Source: an uncultured Candidatus Saccharibacteria bacterium
GTDB lineage: Bacteria > Patescibacteriota > Minisyncoccia > UBA6257 > UBA9933
NCBI GenBank assembly: GCA_964362385.1
Contig: CAYIEH010000003.1
Coordinates: 1-32,232 of the forward strand
Length of the DNA stretch: 32,232 nt
Direction of reading: 5' to 3'
Made by a program: the position numbers and the translations under genes. Shown here piece after piece: positions 2,421 to 28,909 of the stretch (the stretch's first letter is position 1; every line of letters starts with the position of its first letter). Below the pieces are notes generated by a model. It saw only the letters and a list, made by a program, of their open reading frames with translations, ran no database searches and was not told the DNA's origin.

Positions 2421-3338
2421 TTATTTTCGTCTGCGGCCGTGAAAGGCTTTATGGACTTCTTTCAATTCCTTATTGGTCAGGTGAGTGTAAATTTGGGTTG
2501 TTGAAATATTCGCGTGGCCGAGAAGTTCCTGAACTGACCGAAGATCCGCGCCGTTAATCAAAAGATCTGTTGCAAATCCGTGGCGCATCATATGCGGATG
2601 AACCTTTTTGGCAATCCCGGCTTTGCGGGCATAAAAGTCAATAAGCCTTTGAACAGCTCTGGGAATAATTCTGCCGATAACTTTTGGGGGCAGCGCGGCT
2701 GTGGTCAGACGGCTAAGGCTTACAAACATCGCTTCGTCAGCGTCAGTTCTTTTGTCTAAGTAATTTTTAATAGCTTTTTTGGCGCTGTCGGCCAAAAAAA
2801 CAACGCGTAATTTACTCCCTTTGCCGCGGACAGTAAATTCCCCTCTGTTTAAATCAATATAGCGATTTAAAGCGCAAAGTTCTGAAATTCTTAAGCCGGT
2901 TGAAAATAAAATTTCTAAAATAGCTTTGTCCCTAAGAGACCTTAAATCATCGCCCTTGGGAGCCTCCAGTAATCTTTCCAATTCGTCATATTCAAGAATT
3001 TCAATTTGCCGCACAGGGACTTTCGGCAGTTCAATTTTATCAGAAGCTAAAACTTGGTAATCATTTTTTGCCAGATATTTTAAAAAATTTCTTAAAGCAA
3101 TAATATAGTAGCTTTGAGTTGTTTTTTTTAAGTTTTCTCCTTTTTGGTTTGGAAGACGGGCGAGGCGCAGGCGAAAATCCCGAATTTTATCAATTGTAAT
3201 ATCTTTTTCTGTTTTTACTTTGGCAAAATTAAAGAATTTTTTAAGGTAAAATTCGTAATTCTCCCGGGTTTTAGGCGAGCGGTTTTTTTCAATTTCCAGA
3301 TAATCAAGGTAGTTTTTTAAAAGGGTGTTAATATCCAT
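2421..3338 (-). CDS. xerC: Tyrosine recombinase, XerC/XerD family
   Basis: 305 aa; catalytic residues TGLRISE (R), VRGKG (K), HMMRH (H-x-x-R), LLGHAN (H), TTQIYT (Y); N-terminal SAM-like domain. XerC versus XerD cannot be resolved by eye. Confidence 0.9.
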   Translation of the reverse strand: MDINTLLKNYLDYLEIEKNRSPKTRENYEFYLKKFFNFAKVKTEKDITIDKIRDFRLRLARLPNQKGENLKKTTQSYYIIALRNFLKYLAKNDYQVLASDKIELPKVPVRQIEILEYDELERLLEAPKGDDLRSLRDKAILEILFSTGLRISELCALNRYIDLNRGEFTVRGKGSKLRVVFLADSAKKAIKNYLDKRTDADEAMFVSLSRLTTAALPPKVIGRIIPRAVQRLIDFYARKAGIAKKVHPHMMRHGFATDLLINGADLRSVQELLGHANISTTQIYTHLTNKELKEVHKAFHGRRRK

Positions 3339-12439: not shown

Positions 12440-12524
12440 GGCGTTCCTATTTTTTAAGGGAACGCTAATTTTTTTAAAATAAAAATTGCCCTTCTAAATC
12501 CAAAAGATTTAAAGAAGGGCAATT
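12440..12524. terminator. Two hairpins between convergent genes
   Basis: gcgttcc...ggaacgc followed by a T tract; aattgcccttct...agaagggcaatt. Confidence 0.6.
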
Positions 12525-13510
12525 CAGAAGGGCAGTGTACTTATTCTTGTAGGCATCATTTCAAAGACAATATATTCTTCCTGGTCTTTTTCAACAACAA
12601 TCTGGGTGTCGCAAAGTCTGGTTTCGGGATTCGGAAGCGCCAAATCGGCGATATTTTTCTGCCAGAATTTTTCTCCGTTAAACTCCAGCAACTTACAAAT
12701 TTCATCCCAAAGCGGATTTTTAATTCCTTTCGGGAAATATCTTGTCAGCATTTCCGCTATAAGATATTTTCTTTTGCCGATTTTCTGGCTTTCAATATTA
12801 TCAATAATATCTTTCGCTCCTTTTAGTTTGCTAAAATCCGCGCGATATCCGTTATTCCGATAAATTGAAAGTCTTTTATCAATGAATCTCGCCAAGCCCC
12901 CGAGCTGGTTTTTGATATTTTCATTGAGGTAAATTTCGGAATGAAAAATATCCGACATGAAATAAGCGTCTTTTAAATCAACGCTGAATCGCAAACCATT
13001 GCGTGCTATGCGGCATATCTTATGGATTACAACCGATTTGTTTCTCTTCGCGTAATACGTTTTTTGTCCTTTGATAAAAAACGGATTGGTATATGGGTTG
13101 CATTTCCATTGCGCCACGCGTTCGTCAACCAGCTCTTGAAGAAGTTTAAAAACCACGGGAGCGACAACTCGGTATTGTTTCTCGGTTAAAAGAAACCATT
13201 TCCTGCGTTTTGCAAAGGTTTTTGTTTCCCCGTTTTTTTCCGCAAATCCGCGAGGCTTTAGGCCTTCATGATACGGCCGACTTCTGCCCATGCCTATTTC
13301 GCAAAGGATTACTTCCTTAAAATCGCCAAAAGCTGATTTTCCGGGTCCGATTATCGCGATTACTCCGATAAACGGGCTATTGTTTTTGATTATTTCAGGC
13401 GAGCCGTTTGAGATGTCAATAATGAATTTAGCTCCGGTTTTAACCCTATCAACATCATCTTTGATAAGTTGCGAGATTGGTTTTGGACCATATTTTTCCA
13501 ATTCTTTCAC
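12524..13510 (-). CDS. Hypothetical protein
   Basis: 328 aa ORF. The listed GTG lies within the SD (GGAGGTG), so the true start may be TTG at 13501. Confidence 0.7.
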   Translation of the reverse strand: MKELEKYGPKPISQLIKDDVDRVKTGAKFIIDISNGSPEIIKNNSPFIGVIAIIGPGKSAFGDFKEVILCEIGMGRSRPYHEGLKPRGFAEKNGETKTFAKRRKWFLLTEKQYRVVAPVVFKLLQELVDERVAQWKCNPYTNPFFIKGQKTYYAKRNKSVVIHKICRIARNGLRFSVDLKDAYFMSDIFHSEIYLNENIKNQLGGLARFIDKRLSIYRNNGYRADFSKLKGAKDIIDNIESQKIGKRKYLIAEMLTRYFPKGIKNPLWDEICKLLEFNGEKFWQKNIADLALPNPETRLCDTQIVVEKDQEEYIVFEMMPTRISTLPF

Positions 13511-13701
13511 CTCCTTTTTGTTTAAAATTTGAAAAATCTAACTTAAATTAATCACTTATTATTAATAAAGTCAAAGGAAGAAAGCCCCGCATTGCCACGC
13601 ATTTTGCGGGGCTTGTGCGTGGGTAAAAATTTTGTTTGGTGGGCGGCATAGGATTCGGAGCAGAGCGAAGCGGCGCGGGCACCTGTGACCTCTTCGGCTT
13701 G

Positions 13702-13805
13702 CCCCGTTAGATTTCGCTGTGGGCACTGAGGGGATTGAACCCCCGACCTACTCGGTGTAAACGAGTCGCTCTACCACTGAGCTAAGTGCCCATAATCTAA
13801 CGGGG
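13702..13805. mobile_element. Inverted-repeat-bounded element carrying a tRNA
   Basis: ccccgttagatt 13702-13713 / aatctaacgggg 13794-13805; the same terminus recurs at 28062 and 28736. Confidence 0.7.
13720..13791 (-). tRNA. tRNA-Val(TAC), intact (inner), no encoded CCA
   Basis: GGGCACT TA GCTC AGTGGTA GAGC G ACTCG TT-TAC-AC CGAGT AGGTC GGGGG TTCAATC CCCTC AGTGCCC A forms a full cloverleaf. Confidence 0.96.
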
Positions 13806-14106
13806 TGAATAAACGAGGCGCTCTAACCAACTGAGCTAGCCGCCCACTTTAAGCGGGATTGTCGTCCCTACGGGAGATTTACCGCAGGTATGACAATCTG
13901 TACCTAAAATTTTACGCAAACTTGAATTTTTAGACAAATCGGGAATAAACTCGCGCTCCATGCCCCGCACAACTTGTTGCTGCGGGGTGCCCTGCCGTCC
14001 AACTTTATCGGGCGGGAGCTAAACGCGCATAAATTTAATACCTCCGTCTTTAATTATTTGCTTAATAATAATTCTACTTTTTTGACCACTCTAACCAGCC
14101 GAAAAA

Positions 14107-14721
14107 TTACAGGTCTTCTTTATTCCCGTTGTATTTTTTGTAAAAAGCTCCGCTTTTGGCAATAATTTTCCTGAAGACATTTTCAAGAAGAATCACCGCA
14201 ATCAGAAGAATTGTTATAAAGATAGCGACTTTTTTCAAGTCCTTTTTTAAAATGCCAGCCTGATCGGCGAATACAAATCCCAAAGACACAAAAGCTATTG
14301 TCCAAATTAAGGCGGCAGGAATGCTGTTGCGCAACAATCTTTTAAACGGGGTCTTCATATATCCGCTTGAGAGCAAAACAAAACGGTTGGTATTCCATGC
14401 GAATTTTGACGCAAATATATAAAGGCCTTCCCGGCTTTTAATTTTATTAAACAGCGACTCCATTTTTTCCAGATTAAAGAACAAAAACTTTTTTTTGTGG
14501 AGTTGCGAGAGTTTTTTTCCGATAAACCAATAGGCAATATCATGGATGACAACTGCGGAAAAAGCGAAAATCACCACGTTTAAAAAATTAATGCTTCCGC
14601 CGCGCACCAGAATGCCGGATAAAATAAGAACCACCTCGCCCTCAATAAACATCCCTAAAAATATGATTATATAAGTAAGGATGCGATGGACTTCGGAAAA
14701 ATTAGCAAAAAATTGTTCCAT
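14107..14721 (-). CDS. dedA: DedA family membrane protein
   Basis: EGE.VLILSG, HD...YWFIGK, IFASKF...NR...SGY.K.PF, ALIW...FVSLGF. Confidence 0.88.
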   Translation of the reverse strand: MEQFFANFSEVHRILTYIIIFLGMFIEGEVVLILSGILVRGGSINFLNVVIFAFSAVVIHDIAYWFIGKKLSQLHKKKFLFFNLEKMESLFNKIKSREGLYIFASKFAWNTNRFVLLSSGYMKTPFKRLLRNSIPAALIWTIAFVSLGFVFADQAGILKKDLKKVAIFITILLIAVILLENVFRKIIAKSGAFYKKYNGNKEDL

Positions 14722-21830: not shown

Positions 21831-21962
21831 AAACCTTTACCTTCCCAAATTTTTGTCTCAGATTATCTATTTCAGCGCGTAAGAAGACGAAGTCGCGCCT
21901 TCGGCTCTGATTAGGTAATATTTCAAATCTGGAATAAAATTTAGGCGGGTGCTCAATGTTGT
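21831..21962 (+). repeat. ~132-bp dispersed repeat, copy 2 (downstream of rpsO)
   Basis: Nearly identical to the reverse complement of 10183-10314. Confidence 0.92.
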
Positions 21963-27998: not shown

Positions 27999-28176
27999 TT
28001 TTCCTCCCTATTTTATTTGTAATTTGTGTTTAAATTATATTGTATTTCATTAGATTTGTCAACCCCGTTAGAAGTGCGGCTTTTTATGCCGTAAAACCGC
28101 CTAATTTGAGAAAATCCATACAATATCTTACATTAATATAGACGAATTATCGCCATAATTATTACTCCATATCAAT

Positions 28177-28761
28177 ATGATTGAATATTATACAGAAGCG
28201 CTGGTTTTAGGCAAGGAAGATGTTAATGAAGCTGACGGCCTGGTTTATTTTTATACCAAAGACTTGGGCAAGGTCATTGGGAAAGCTAAAGGCGTTAGGA
28301 AAATGACGTCAAAATTAAACGCTCATTTAGAACCCCTTAATTTCGTAAACGTCCGCCTGGTCTCGGGAAAAAACCATTATTTCCAGATTGCCGACGCCTT
28401 GTCGTTTAAAACGGATTTGACAAAGAAGATAAAAAAATCGCCTCAAATTTTGTCCAAATTTTTGGGGATTGTTGATTTTATAAAAGAAGCGACTTTTGAA
28501 CTTCAGCCGGACTTTAATTTGTGGCAAACAATCAATAAGATGGTTTCTTCTGACATTAAAGAAATATCCGCTTTCAGGCTTATTTTAAAAGAACTGGGGT
28601 TTGACCCGGAATTTGCCGAATGCGGATTGTGCCGCAATAAAAATATCGTTTATTTTCTGAAAAAAGACCAGATTTTTTTATGCGAGAAATGCGGACATAG
28701 TTCCAAAATTCCCGAAAATGAATTAATATTAATAAACCCCGTTAGAGATCTGGCAATGTGA
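28177..28761 (+). CDS. recO: DNA repair protein RecO
   Basis: EAD..V..YTKDLGKV...AKGVRK..SKL..HLEP; LGF.P....C..C and C..C zinc finger. Confidence 0.92.
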   Translation: MIEYYTEALVLGKEDVNEADGLVYFYTKDLGKVIGKAKGVRKMTSKLNAHLEPLNFVNVRLVSGKNHYFQIADALSFKTDLTKKIKKSPQILSKFLGIVDFIKEATFELQPDFNLWQTINKMVSSDIKEISAFRLILKELGFDPEFAECGLCRNKNIVYFLKKDQIFLCEKCGHSSKIPENELILINPVRDLAM

Positions 28762-28864
28762 TATTTTCGTCTTCTTAAGCAAGAAGTGGCTTTAATATTA
28801 TTCTTAGTTAATGGTCAGAAAAAATTTTTGTTAAAAATTTTTTCTTGAAGATCTTTAACGAAGT
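28736..28864. mobile_element. Degenerate CCCCGTTAGA-family element overlapping the recO 3' end
   Basis: accccgttagagatct 28736-28751 versus agatctttaacgaagt 28849-28864 (13/16 complementary). Confidence 0.55.
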
Positions 28865-28909
28865 AAGGAAAACCGATAACTAACGGCCAATAGCTGAATT
28901 TAAAAAATT

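What the first reader, a model, noticed from the sequence alone, without database searches (positions are those of the whole stretch)
13637..13845. tRNA inside a tRNA: an inverted-repeat element carrying intact tRNA-Val sits in the anticodon loop of another tRNA-Val-like gene
Seen: on the minus strand, an outer tRNA (GGGCGGC acceptor stem, perfect D arm, ACCA end) breaks off in its anticodon loop after CCTCG-TTTA. It resumes about 110 nt later as CCGAAG-AGGTC-ACAGG. The insert is bounded by a perfect 12-bp inverted repeat (ccccgttagatt/aatctaacgggg) and contains little except a complete tRNA-Val(TAC). The inner acceptor and T stems differ from the outer ones, so this is not a simple local duplication. 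Both share CTCGTTTA at the anticodon arm, suggesting the same isoacceptor. Inference: a small element inactivated an essential tRNA while supplying a full replacement. Integrative elements typically restore only part of the target tRNA. Alternatively, the insert is an excisable stem-bounded intron and one transcript yields two tRNAs.
Basis: partly seen in the sequence, partly recalled or inferred. Interest (0 to 1): 0.9.

Follow-up and report, generated by a model that had tools for sequence, protein, structure and literature searches.

The report
Russian-doll tRNA genes from mobile cassettes
A working valine tRNA gene sits inside the broken anticodon loop of an older valine tRNA gene, which itself sits inside still older remnants; the same nesting recurs across many ultra-small (Patescibacteria) genomes and looks like a small mobile cassette that kills a tRNA gene while delivering its replacement.

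Summary
On the minus strand, an intact tRNA-Val(TAC) (13791-13719) is bounded by a perfect 12-bp inverted repeat. It lies in the anticodon loop of a second tRNA-Val-like gene (13845-13637).

That outer gene is a decayed copy of a tRNA that is intact in relatives. It has a 21-nt insert in the T loop and stem mismatches. No single deletion restores it.

The nest is deeper than reported. The "outer" gene sits in another cassette, inside a third and possibly a fourth tRNA remnant (up to 14028).

Independent contigs from two studies reproduce the structure.

The same genome holds a second nest, Val(CAC). Relatives and many named Patescibacteria lineages hold dozens: Val, Met, Thr, probably Ile. Some are three deep.

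The 12-bp repeat is the terminal repeat of a MITE-like family spread through this genome. Ten of 25 inverted pairs have 4-bp target duplications.

No splicing endonuclease or RtcB ligase was found.

Best reading: serial DNA insertion of tRNA-carrying mini-elements, with outer genes as relics. The insertion enzyme and the reason for strict cognate targeting are unknown. Six full-text searches found no description of this.

The parts
13719..13791 (-). Level 1: intact tRNA-Val(TAC), no encoded CCA. This is the presumed working gene.
   Evidence: ARAGORN; Rfam tRNA 72.5 bits. It is 100% identical over 73 nt to a plain tRNA in G047 and, by eye, to the nested tRNA of G259. A CCA-adding enzyme is encoded on contig C2.
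13794..13805 (-). Left terminal inverted repeat of the type A cassette (CCCCGTTAGATT), preceded by TTCA at 13809-13806.
   Evidence: pair I4. The same left end, TTCA plus CCCCGTTAGA, is seen in G371, G275, G259, G101, G076, G116, L084, L106 and L155.
13702..13713 (-). Right terminal inverted repeat of the type A cassette (AATCTAACGGGG), followed by CAAGC at 13701-13697.
   Evidence: pair I4. The cassette is 104 bp from repeat to repeat. A CARG tail follows the right repeat in all type A nests inspected.
13810..13845 (-). Level 2, 5' half.
   Evidence: It matches intact tRNA-Val(TAC) genes L047, L046 and L045 at 97% over the aligned part.
13637..13696 (-). Level 2, 3' half: anticodon-stem 3' strand (one mismatch), variable loop, T arm with a 21-nt insert at 13680-13660 and an altered T loop, acceptor strand and ACCA.
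   Evidence: compared with L047. No single deletion restores an ARAGORN-detectable tRNA-Val.
13846..13945 (-). Left flank of an older 'type C' cassette that delivered the level 2 tRNA. It contains a promoter-like TTGTCT-17-TAAAAT and an internal hairpin.
   Evidence: Its first 21 nt and last 16 nt are identical to the left flank of the nest in G016 (L042; exact matches). Promoter-like site: (1 found, 0.8 expected by chance). The same hexamers and spacing are seen by eye in L042. Hairpin: I1.
13946..14000 (-). Level 3: 5' half of an older tRNA-Val-like gene, broken after TTTA, with its D loop replaced by a GC-rich hairpin. No matching 3' half was found downstream.
   Evidence: compared with the intact outer gene of G016 (L042). 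G116 (L291) has the same order (type C flank, middle tRNA, type A cassette, Val(TAC)) and still keeps the level 3 3' half.
14016..14028 (-). Possible level 4: a 13-nt fragment that reads as an acceptor 5' strand plus D-stem start, followed by a short flank that ends like the type C flank.
   Evidence: Direct repeat D3 shows 82% identity to the start of the inner tRNA. Weak evidence, from inspection only.
13582..13614 (-). GC-rich hairpin downstream of the nest, followed by a T-rich run. Possible terminator of the unit.
   Evidence: pair I8 (10-nt perfect arms). The scan did not call it a terminator.
14107..14721 (-). Upstream neighbour, a DedA-like membrane protein used as the synteny anchor.
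   Evidence: Pfam VTT_dom 22.8 bits, below the 33.9-bit cut-off. tblastn finds homologues next to tRNA-Val(TAC) in 7 relatives.

Best explanation
The locus is a stack of tRNA-Val genes made by repeated DNA insertion. A small non-coding cassette consists of terminal inverted repeats enclosing one complete tRNA gene. It inserts into the anticodon loop of a resident tRNA gene of the same kind. The resident gene is split and dies, and the cargo tRNA takes over decoding. Later a new cassette can hit the cargo in turn, so the innermost gene is the youngest and the only working one, while the outer halves decay.

In the window, a type C cassette carrying its own promoter-like site delivered the middle tRNA into an older gene next to the DedA-like gene. 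A 104-bp type A cassette then delivered the present tRNA-Val(TAC) into that middle gene.

The type A ends are the terminal repeats of a MITE-like family that is spread through this genome and makes 4-bp target duplications. So the cassette is most likely moved in trans by the same, still unidentified, machinery. The whole nest is presumably transcribed as one unit. The inner tRNA would then be released by ordinary RNase P and 3'-end processing, followed by CCA addition.

Shown here: the anatomy, the recurrence, the decay of outer genes, empty sites in relatives, the shared ends with MITEs, and independent assemblies.

Inferred: that insertion is transposition-like, the order of events, transcription and processing, and why only cognate targets are seen.
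For: 1. Anatomy.
2. A second nest exists in the same genome, Val(CAC) in a Val(CAC)-like outer gene on C44, with a different flank sequence.
3. The outer gene is a relic. Compared with the intact orthologue L047 it has a T-loop insert and stem mismatches. In 22 of 35 nests, including the window and all type B nests, no single deletion gives a normal-length tRNA of the same isotype.
4. Empty sites exist. Seven relatives have the DedA-like neighbour next to tRNA-Val(TAC); five are plain and two are nested.
5. The same cargo sits in different hosts. The window's inner tRNA is 100% identical to tRNAs in two other families (G047; G259) but only 90-92% identical to those of its own family. The outer genes around this cargo differ in the window, G259, G101, G076 and G116.
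6. Multi-level nests occur: the window, G116 (L291), L138 (a clean three-level nest) and L112.
7. Spread. A strict pattern hits 16 of 401 genomes of the order with 0 control hits; I judged 12 to be true nests. About 23-25 of the 80 loci listed in the all-species scan are nests, in MAGs named as many Patescibacteria lineages.
8. The type A end belongs to a MITE family. There are 25 inverted pairs in the genome, and 10 have perfect 4-bp direct repeats abutting the ends, against about 0.1 expected.
9. Independent contigs from two studies reproduce the structure.
10. No EndA and no RtcB was found. A CCA-adding enzyme is present.
Against: - The tRNA cassettes themselves show no target-site duplication. 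Junctions are either exact between anticodon bases 2 and 3, or carry an extra TTCA on the left with CA lost on the right. In type B nests 5 nt are lost. This does not fit the simple cut-and-paste behaviour of the cargo-less MITEs.
- No free cassette outside a tRNA gene was seen. All 15 type A-plus-tRNA matches in 401 genomes follow a tRNA remnant. Random transposition plus selection should leave some free copies.
- No transposase was tied to the element. DDE_Tnp_1 and rve were not found. The only candidate is an IS200-like Y1 protein on C33. Such a protein is present in 6 of 12 nest-bearing genomes against 112 of 401 overall, which is no clear link.
- Some outer genes are fully restorable (13 of 35). 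That fits recent insertion but also fits function.
- Contig C47 carries another tRNA-Val(TAC), so the disrupted copy need not have been essential.
- There are no expression data.
Confidence: 0.68

Rival explanations
1. Guided homing. The cassette is not inserted at random and then filtered by selection. It is aimed at the cognate tRNA gene by nucleic-acid homology or by structure. The cargo tRNA, as DNA or RNA, might pair with the target gene. Alternatively, the enzyme might recognise hairpin loops of tRNA genes in single-stranded DNA. This differs from the best explanation only in how the target is chosen.
For: All 15 type A-plus-tRNA matches in 401 genomes lie inside a tRNA remnant. The remnant is of the same isotype wherever it can be read: Val in Val and Thr in Thr. 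Met sits in Met. No free copy was seen. Relic outer genes repeatedly carry GC-rich hairpin inserts in D and T loops: window levels 2 and 3, L028, L071, L285, L292, L299, L291 and L077. This suggests that loops of tRNA genes are insertion hot spots.
Against: Cargo-less MITEs with the same ends sit in ordinary intergenic DNA at varied 4-bp sites. One nest has a non-matching outer anticodon remnant (G116, CTCA, around a Val(TAC) cargo). Junction positions vary: after loop base 33, 35 or 38, or inside the stem. No guide-using enzyme was identified.
Confidence: 0.17
2. Functional intron. The stem-bounded insert is removed from the transcript and the outer halves are rejoined, so one transcript gives two tRNAs. 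Alternatively, the outer halves stay paired as a split tRNA.
For: The outer acceptor stems usually pair perfectly, and some outer genes are exact once the insert is removed (G016 L042, L138, L126, L121, L056, L057). In all, 13 of 35 are restorable. The flank stems covary between families while keeping their pairing. The fold is more stable than shuffles.
Against: The window's outer gene has a 21-nt T-loop insert and stem mismatches. 22 of 35 nests cannot be restored by any single excision, and type B nests always lack 5 nt. EndA and RtcB were not found in a 95% complete genome. No Rfam intron family matches. Terminal repeats of a transposon covary for their own reasons. Level 3 has lost its 3' half altogether.
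Confidence: 0.08
3. Scars of integrase-driven islands. Larger integrative elements (phage or plasmid) carrying a tRNA integrated into the tRNA gene and were later deleted down to the tRNA and the attachment-site arms.
For: Disrupt-and-replace integration is known for phages (PMC10865867; I read the abstract only). Some loci show only one side of the nest (L041, L062, L064, L076, L044), as if more cargo lay between. L063 has four stacked right-flank-plus-3'-half units. A tyrosine recombinase gene lies in the window at 2469-2996.
Against: The same minimal unit of about 100-170 bp, with no ORF, recurs in dozens of independent loci. No identity block is shared between left and right junctions, as a tyrosine-recombinase core would leave. 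0 of 83 viral-contig stretches with the type A left end is a tRNA cassette. The ends are shared with MITEs that make 4-bp duplications.
Confidence: 0.05
4. Assembly or binning artefact that joins reads of several tRNA-Val genes.
For: The genome is a 48-contig MAG with scaffold gaps. tRNA k-mers are shared among organisms in the sample (depth spikes). One relative's nest (L058) has repeated identical units around an N gap.
Against: Exact per-run contigs span the left junctions in two runs. A diverged strain from another study carries the whole nest. The architecture recurs in many genomes, including long contigs.
Confidence: 0.02

Closest known systems
tRNA-dependent lysogeny of actinobacteriophages (Guerrero-Bustamante & Hatfull 2024, PMC10865867; abstract read)
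   Same: A mobile element integrates into a host tRNA gene without rebuilding it. [quoted passage not shown]
   Different: That element is a whole temperate phage with a tyrosine integrase and a short common core of about 10 bp. Here the element is about 100-170 bp with no ORF. It is bounded by inverted repeats, lies in the anticodon loop, shows no common core, and nests recursively.
MITEs, miniature inverted-repeat transposable elements (general knowledge; Correia elements of Neisseria recalled, no call)
   Same: Small, non-coding and bounded by terminal inverted repeats. The ends are shared with many other copies in the same genome that make short target duplications. The repeats would form a stem in any transcript.
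   Different: The cargo is a complete working tRNA gene. The target is the cognate tRNA gene's anticodon loop. No target duplication is seen at the nests, and no autonomous partner was found.
Archaeal tRNA introns and split tRNAs: bulge-helix-bulge introns, the box C/D RNA inside the tRNA-Trp intron, and Nanoarchaeum split tRNA genes (recalled; reviews PMC4090602 and PMC4390854 seen in search listings only)
   Same: An insert in or next to the anticodon loop is bounded by a helix. There is precedent for a functional RNA lodged inside a tRNA intron.
   Different: The host is a bacterium without detectable EndA or RtcB. The junction forms an 8 x 5 internal loop rather than a 3-4-3 bulge-helix-bulge. 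Most outer genes cannot be restored by excision. The insert is itself a tRNA.
Group I introns in bacterial tRNA anticodon loops, for example cyanobacterial tRNA-Leu(UAA) (recalled; PMC4476775 seen in a search listing only)
   Same: A bacterial tRNA gene is interrupted in the anticodon loop.
   Different: Nothing in the window besides the tRNA reaches any Rfam family's gathering score, so no intron family does; the laxer search of the nest region gave only weak matches below gathering score, none to an intron family. The insert is about 110 nt and consists of a tRNA plus a stem.
Insertion sequences that target loops of palindromic repeats, such as IS1397 and ISKpn1 in REP units, and REPIN/RAYT systems (recalled, no call)
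   Same: Insertion goes preferentially into hairpin loops of structured DNA, with short duplications. A Y1 (IS200-like) protein is encoded in this genome.
   Different: No rve-type transposase was found. The Y1 protein scores 29.9 bits against the 80-bit cut-off of the REP-associated transposase model. The repeats here are paired ends, not single palindromes.

Membership tests
MITE-like non-autonomous transposon | Terminal inverted repeats at both ends | tested here: met
   Perfect 12-nt repeat at 13702-13713 / 13794-13805.
MITE-like non-autonomous transposon | Small size and no coding capacity for a transposase | tested here: met
   104 bp from end to end, of which 73 are the tRNA.
MITE-like non-autonomous transposon | Many copies in the genome sharing the ends | tested here: met
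   25 inverted pairs with CCCCGTTAG-type ends, allowing up to 1 mismatch, lie within 18-450 nt of each other in the 597-kb genome. They enclose several unrelated inner sequences. Only one of them carries a tRNA.
MITE-like non-autonomous transposon | Target-site duplication flanking the element | tested here: not met
   The nest is flanked by TTCA and CAAG, not by a direct repeat. The other type A nests also lack one. Cargo-less family members do have one: 10 of 25 pairs show perfect 4-bp repeats.
MITE-like non-autonomous transposon | A related autonomous element or transposase | tested here: inconclusive
   DDE_Tnp_1 and rve were not found. One Y1_Tnp protein is present (29-30 bits). It shows no clear association with nests: 6 of 12 against 112 of 401. 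Other transposase families were not searched.
Protein-spliced (archaeal-type) tRNA intron | Splicing endonuclease (EndA) and ligase (RtcB) encoded | tested here: not met
   PF01974 and PF01139 give no match in the 95% complete genome. The control genomes ring.
Protein-spliced (archaeal-type) tRNA intron | Excision restores a canonical tRNA | tested here: not met
   No single deletion gives an ARAGORN tRNA-Val of 71-78 nt for the window. 13 of 35 nests can be restored.
Protein-spliced (archaeal-type) tRNA intron | Bulge-helix-bulge motif at the exon-intron borders | tested here: not met
   In the fold, an unpaired 8-nt and an unpaired 5-nt stretch separate the anticodon stem from the 12-bp helix. 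There is no pair of 3-nt bulges around a 4-bp helix. Judged by inspection only.
Group I intron in tRNA | Match to a group I intron model | tested here: not met
   The tRNA is the only match at gathering threshold in the window. No intron family appears at E up to 10 in 13450-14100.
tRNA-dependent integrative element (phage type) | Disrupts a tRNA gene without rebuilding it and carries a cognate tRNA | tested here: met
tRNA-dependent integrative element (phage type) | Own integrase, and attL/attR sharing a common core | tested here: not met
   There is no ORF in the insert and no shared core at the two junctions. 0 of 83 viral stretches with the left end hold a tRNA cassette.
REP/REPIN-RAYT system | REP-associated tyrosine transposase | tested here: inconclusive
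   NF047646 scores 29.9 bits against a cut-off of 80. Pfam Y1_Tnp scores 29.2 bits against a cut-off of 23.

The most novel reading that the evidence does not exclude
Patescibacteria harbour a self-targeting 'tRNA gene drive': mini-cassettes that home specifically into the anticodon loop of the tRNA gene cognate to their own cargo. The cargo tRNA sequence or the hairpin structure of the target would serve as the guide. Each tRNA locus is then overwritten again and again, leaving a fossil stack of earlier genes. This would be a new way of choosing a target and a new route of tRNA gene turnover and horizontal tRNA replacement in reduced genomes.
Probability: 0.2. Interest if true: 0.95.

Novelty: new variant of a known kind. 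Interest (0 to 1): 0.8.

Why it matters
If the reading holds, four consequences follow.

1. tRNA genes in a whole bacterial phylum are being replaced by insertion of mobile tRNA cassettes rather than by point mutation or duplication. The dead outer halves then act as a datable fossil record of earlier tRNA genes at the same locus.

2. The cassette is a minimal selfish element that makes itself indispensable. It breaks the resident gene and supplies the only working copy. This is the logic recently shown for some temperate phages, here reduced to about 100 bp.

3. It gives a concrete, testable case for how tRNA identity can move horizontally between lineages with single-copy tRNA sets.

4. It affects annotation. 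Standard tRNA finders report only the inner gene, or chimeras in intron mode. These nests and the relic genes are therefore invisible in current annotations of Patescibacteria.

The strict cognate pairing with no free copies is unexplained. It may point to a targeting mechanism not yet described.

Tried and rejected
- ARAGORN intron mode joined the outer 5' half to the inner 3' half and produced chimeras. It was no help in defining the outer gene.
- cmscan at E up to 10 reported no partial tRNA match for the outer halves, so their tRNA nature rests on alignment to intact orthologues.
- The first reconstitution script failed. The second was too permissive and called chimeras with arbitrary anticodons. 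Only the strict version is used.
- Viral contigs: 83 stretches hold the 14-nt type A left end. That is about what chance would give, and none is a tRNA cassette. Three or four show the short hairpin form of the motif.
- RNA evidence: no RNA holder was listed for the locus, so expression, processing and splicing could not be examined.
- Y1 transposase link: 6 of 12 nest-bearing genomes against 112 of 401 overall. Inconclusive.
- The type B flank motif searched at up to 2 mismatches in five genomes gave as many control hits as hits. Only the 0-1 mismatch pairs in G101 and G216 were followed. They bound AT-rich intergenic pieces, and one lies in the 5' end of a pilin-like ORF. I could not decide whether they are MITEs.
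- Promoter and terminator scan: one promoter-like site against 0.8 expected by chance, and no terminator called. The promoter idea rests on conservation in G016, judged by eye.
- I looked for a target duplication at the tRNA cassettes, and for co-transfer of the outer anticodon stem with the cargo as gene conversion would give. Neither is seen.
- Literature: six full-text searches found no paper describing a tRNA gene nested in a tRNA gene in bacteria or in the candidate phyla radiation. Papers outside the held library and all supplementary files were not seen.
- Complex prediction, structure tools and the large protein searches were not needed.
Full report
**1. What is in the window**

Read on the minus strand, the region 13845-13637 begins with a seven-base acceptor strand, a regular D arm and the 5' strand of an anticodon stem. 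It breaks off after TTTA, the loop up to the second anticodon base.

Then come, in order:
- TTCA;
- a 12-nt repeat arm (13805-13794);
- two spacer bases;
- a complete tRNA-Val(TAC) at 13791-13719 (ARAGORN; Rfam tRNA 72.5 bits against a gathering score of 29);
- a short spacer;
- the perfectly complementary 12-nt arm (13713-13702, pair I4);
- CAAGC;
- the rest of the outer gene: anticodon-stem 3' strand, variable loop, T arm, acceptor strand and ACCA (to 13637).

The outer acceptor strands are perfectly complementary (I14). As RNA the stretch folds with the outer acceptor stem, the 12-bp stem and the inner cloverleaf all formed. MFE is -88.6 kcal/mol, z = -3.78, and 0 of 200 shuffles fold as well.

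**2. The outer gene is a dead copy of a real tRNA**

Intact plain tRNA-Val(TAC) genes of relatives (L047, L046, L045) match the outer 5' half at 97% and have the same T-stem and acceptor sequences.

Against L047 the window's outer gene shows:
- a stem-breaking change in the anticodon stem;
- a stem-breaking change in the T stem;
- a changed T loop;
- 21 extra bases inside the T loop (13680-13660).

I removed every possible single segment around the inner gene in silico. No version gives an ARAGORN tRNA-Val of normal length.

**3. The nest is deeper than reported**

The 100 nt upstream of the outer gene (13945-13846) begin and end with 21 and 16 bases that are identical to the left flank of another nest, in relative G016 (L042). 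There, a tRNA-Val(TAC) with that flank sits exactly between anticodon bases 2 and 3 of an otherwise intact outer tRNA-Val, again next to a DedA-like gene.

In the window this flank is preceded by the 5' half of a third tRNA-Val-like gene (14000-13946). That half also ends in TTTA, and its D loop has been replaced by a GC-rich hairpin. Its 3' half is no longer recognisable downstream.

A further 13-nt piece that reads as the start of a tRNA lies at 14028-14016. This last level is weak.

Relative G116, from another family, shows the same order: type C flank, middle tRNA, type A cassette, Val(TAC). It still keeps the third gene's 3' half (L291).

The type C flank carries TTGTCT-17 nt-TAAAAT in both the window and G016 (by eye). 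That cassette may therefore bring its own promoter. The scan alone is not significant: 1 site found against 0.8 expected.

**4. It is not an assembly error**

Per-run contigs laid on 13300-14300 reproduce the junctions.
- Run X2 has an exact 194-nt piece over 13766-13959.
- Run X1 has three exact overlapping pieces over 13766-13950.
- Run X4, from another study, holds a strain a few per cent diverged. Its two pieces (13639-13776 and 13757-14214) cover the right junction and the whole upstream stack.

No RNA run was listed.

**5. It is a recurrent architecture**

*Same genome.* The genome is 597 kb in 48 contigs, 95% complete, and has a tmRNA. Its only tRNA-Val(CAC) is nested in a Val(CAC)-like outer gene on contig C44, between a different pair of inverted flanks.

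*Close relatives.* Among 60 relatives searched with the window's nest (61 genomes with G000), most tRNA-Val genes are plain. I found two-sided nests in G005, G016, G024, G037, G040 and G056, a less clear one in G039, and one-sided remains in G002, G030 and G054.

*The order.* A strict pattern asks for a D-stem end, six bases, TTNA, 12-42 bases, then the start of a new D arm. It hits 16 of 401 genomes of the order with no control hits. By inspection 12 are nests and 4 are not.

About 23-25 of the 80 are nests.
- They lie in MAGs named Niyogibacteria, Doudnabacteria, Levybacteria, Parcubacteria, Paceibacterota, Saccharibacteria, Buchananbacteria, Kerfeldbacteria, Magasanikbacteria, Moraniibacteriota and Roizmanbacteria.
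- A few lie in MAGs labelled Gammaproteobacteria or Bdellovibrionales.
- The hits in Bacteroidia and other phyla are mostly a 5' tRNA fragment followed by a full tRNA without inverted flanks. I treat these as a different thing.

*Depth and isotypes.* Clean three-level nests occur (L138, L112). Nests are not limited to valine:
- Met in Met (L126, L121, L124);
- Thr(TGT) in Thr (G016, G022, G382);
- probably Ile(TAT) and others.

**6. The flanks**

At least five flank families occur. The two arms always pair but differ in sequence between families.

The window's type A end, CCCCGTTAGA, is the key to its nature. The motif is far over-represented in this genome. CCCGTTAG occurs 51 times, against about 10 expected from base composition by my own estimate.

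It forms 25 inverted pairs 18-450 nt apart. These enclose unrelated short sequences such as GC-rich hairpins and AT-rich palindromes, in intergenic DNA, for example between ribosomal protein genes. In 10 of the 25 pairs the four bases outside the two ends are identical: TTTA four times, and TCAA, TTGA, ATTA, TGAA, TCCA and CGAA once each. About 0.1 such pairs would be expected by chance.

These are MITE-like elements with 4-bp target duplications. The tRNA cassette shares their ends.

**7. Junction details, and what does not fit**

The tRNA cassettes do not show a duplication.
- Type A junctions come in two forms. Some are exact between anticodon bases 2 and 3, with a four-base YARG tail belonging to the element (L028, L034, L112 middle level, and a stacked remnant in L087). 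Others have an extra TTCA on the left with the two loop bases CA missing on the right (the window, L059, L061, L071, L084, L106, L108, L153, L155).
- Type B nests always lack five bases of the outer gene (C44, L024, L038, L058, L060).
- Types D and E sit after the last loop base (L056, L057, L069, L081).
- Other junctions lie after loop base 33 or inside the stem.

All 15 matches of the type A end followed by a tRNA start in 401 genomes are preceded by a piece of a tRNA anticodon arm. It is of the same isotype wherever it can be read. One has a non-matching anticodon remnant (G116), and one has only a minimal remnant (G167). I saw no free cassette.

**8. Enzymes**

| Search in the window's genome | Result |
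|---|---|
| Splicing endonuclease (PF01974) | no match |
| RtcB (PF01139) | no match |
| DDE_Tnp_1 | no match |
| rve | no match |
| CCA-adding enzyme | present |
| Tyrosine recombinase | one, window 2469-2996 |
| IS200-like Y1 protein | one, 220 aa on C33; Pfam 29-30 bits; REP-associated transposase model 29.9 against cut-off 80 |

Y1 proteins occur in 112 of 401 genomes of the order and in 6 of the 12 strict-pattern nest genomes. This is no clear link. The 14-nt type A left end occurs in 83 viral-contig stretches, none of them a tRNA cassette.

**9. Weighing the explanations**

Several findings point to insertion of a foreign cassette into a resident gene, repeated over time:
- the decay of outer genes, with 22 of 35 nests not restorable by any single excision;
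- plain tRNAs at the syntenic site in 5 of 7 relatives;
- an identical cargo in three families inside unrelated outer genes, while tRNAs of the same family are only 90-92% identical to it;
- multi-level stacks;
- ends shared with MITEs.

An RNA-level intron is unlikely. The parts needed for protein-dependent splicing were not found, and most outer genes could not give a tRNA.

A worn-down integrated phage or island is unlikely because the same minimal ORF-free unit recurs and no common core is shared by the two junctions.

What remains open is how the target is chosen. Two possibilities stand:
- random MITE-like insertion followed by survival of cognate hits only, which is my default;
- true guidance by the cargo or by hairpin structure.

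The lack of free copies and of target duplications favours guidance. So do the repeated GC-rich hairpin inserts in the D and T loops of relic genes.

A caveat on "addiction": contig C47 holds another tRNA-Val(TAC) next to tRNA-Ile(TAT). The disrupted gene therefore need not have been essential in this genome. The nested Val(CAC) on C44 is the only gene with that anticodon found in the genome.

**10. Known relatives and novelty**

The closest concept is tRNA-dependent lysogeny, in which a phage disrupts a tRNA gene and carries a cognate replacement (PMC10865867; I read the abstract only). The closest structural class is the MITE.

Archaeal tRNA introns and split tRNAs, group I introns in bacterial tRNAs, and rRNA intervening sequences resemble it only in position or in shape. 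Section 8 and the membership table show which defining features fail.

Six full-text searches found no description of tRNA genes nested in tRNA genes in bacteria. The library is incomplete and supplements were closed.

I rate it a new variant of known kinds: a cargo-bearing MITE-like element with disrupt-and-replace logic. There is a real chance that the targeting mechanism is new.

Noticed in passing
G000:C4:21925-22028 (outside the window): A 104-bp MITE with the same CCCCGTTAGA-type ends sits in the last bases of the tmRNA gene, flanked by a TCCA duplication. ARAGORN ends the tmRNA at 21926, inside the element.
   Followed up: partly
window 28063-28074 and about 28737-28865: Two more copies of the motif lie in the window. 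One is a single copy in the promoter region of the ORF at 28177-28761. The other is a MITE of about 125 bp overlapping that ORF's 3' end, whose right arm runs past the stretch I read; near-identical copies of it lie on C26, C20 and C7.
   Followed up: partly
window 13660-13680 and 13961-13990; loci L028, L071, L077, L285, L291, L292, L299, L110, L111: Relic outer tRNA genes repeatedly carry GC-rich hairpin inserts of 18-150 nt exactly in their D loop or T loop. It looks as if loops of tRNA genes are insertion hot spots that become visible only once the gene is dead.
   Followed up: partly
G000:C41:2843-2920 (outside the window): ARAGORN calls a tRNA of unknown type with a four-base anticodon (taaa). 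It has a short variable arm and a TTTAAAA loop. A normal tRNA-Leu(TAA) exists on C5.
   Followed up: no
L298 (G167:C8): A type A cassette whose cargo tRNA is itself interrupted in the D-arm region by a further cassette. That cassette has long inverted flanks and carries tRNA-Thr(CGT).
   Followed up: no
L063 (G101:C1) and L058 (G296:C5): L063 has one 5' half but four stacked 'right flank plus 3' half' units. In L058 the outer and inner genes are identical, and units are repeated on both sides of an N gap. This could be unequal recombination, self-insertion or an assembly problem.
   Followed up: no
L277-L284 (G101, G216): The type B flank motif occurs as inverted pairs 80-280 nt apart around AT-rich intergenic DNA. 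In L278, one arm lies within the 5' end of a pilin-like ORF read by hand.
   Followed up: partly
window 13529 and 13639-13645, in run X4: The diverged strain in run X4 has a 24-nt insertion behind 13529 that contains the AATCTAAC motif. It also has about 82 extra letters at the 3' end of the outer tRNA. The letters were not shown.
   Followed up: no
window 12524-13510 (-): The 328-aa ORF downstream of the nest has no Pfam or NCBIfam match. It is not the gene that follows tRNA-Val(TAC) in several relatives.
   Followed up: partly
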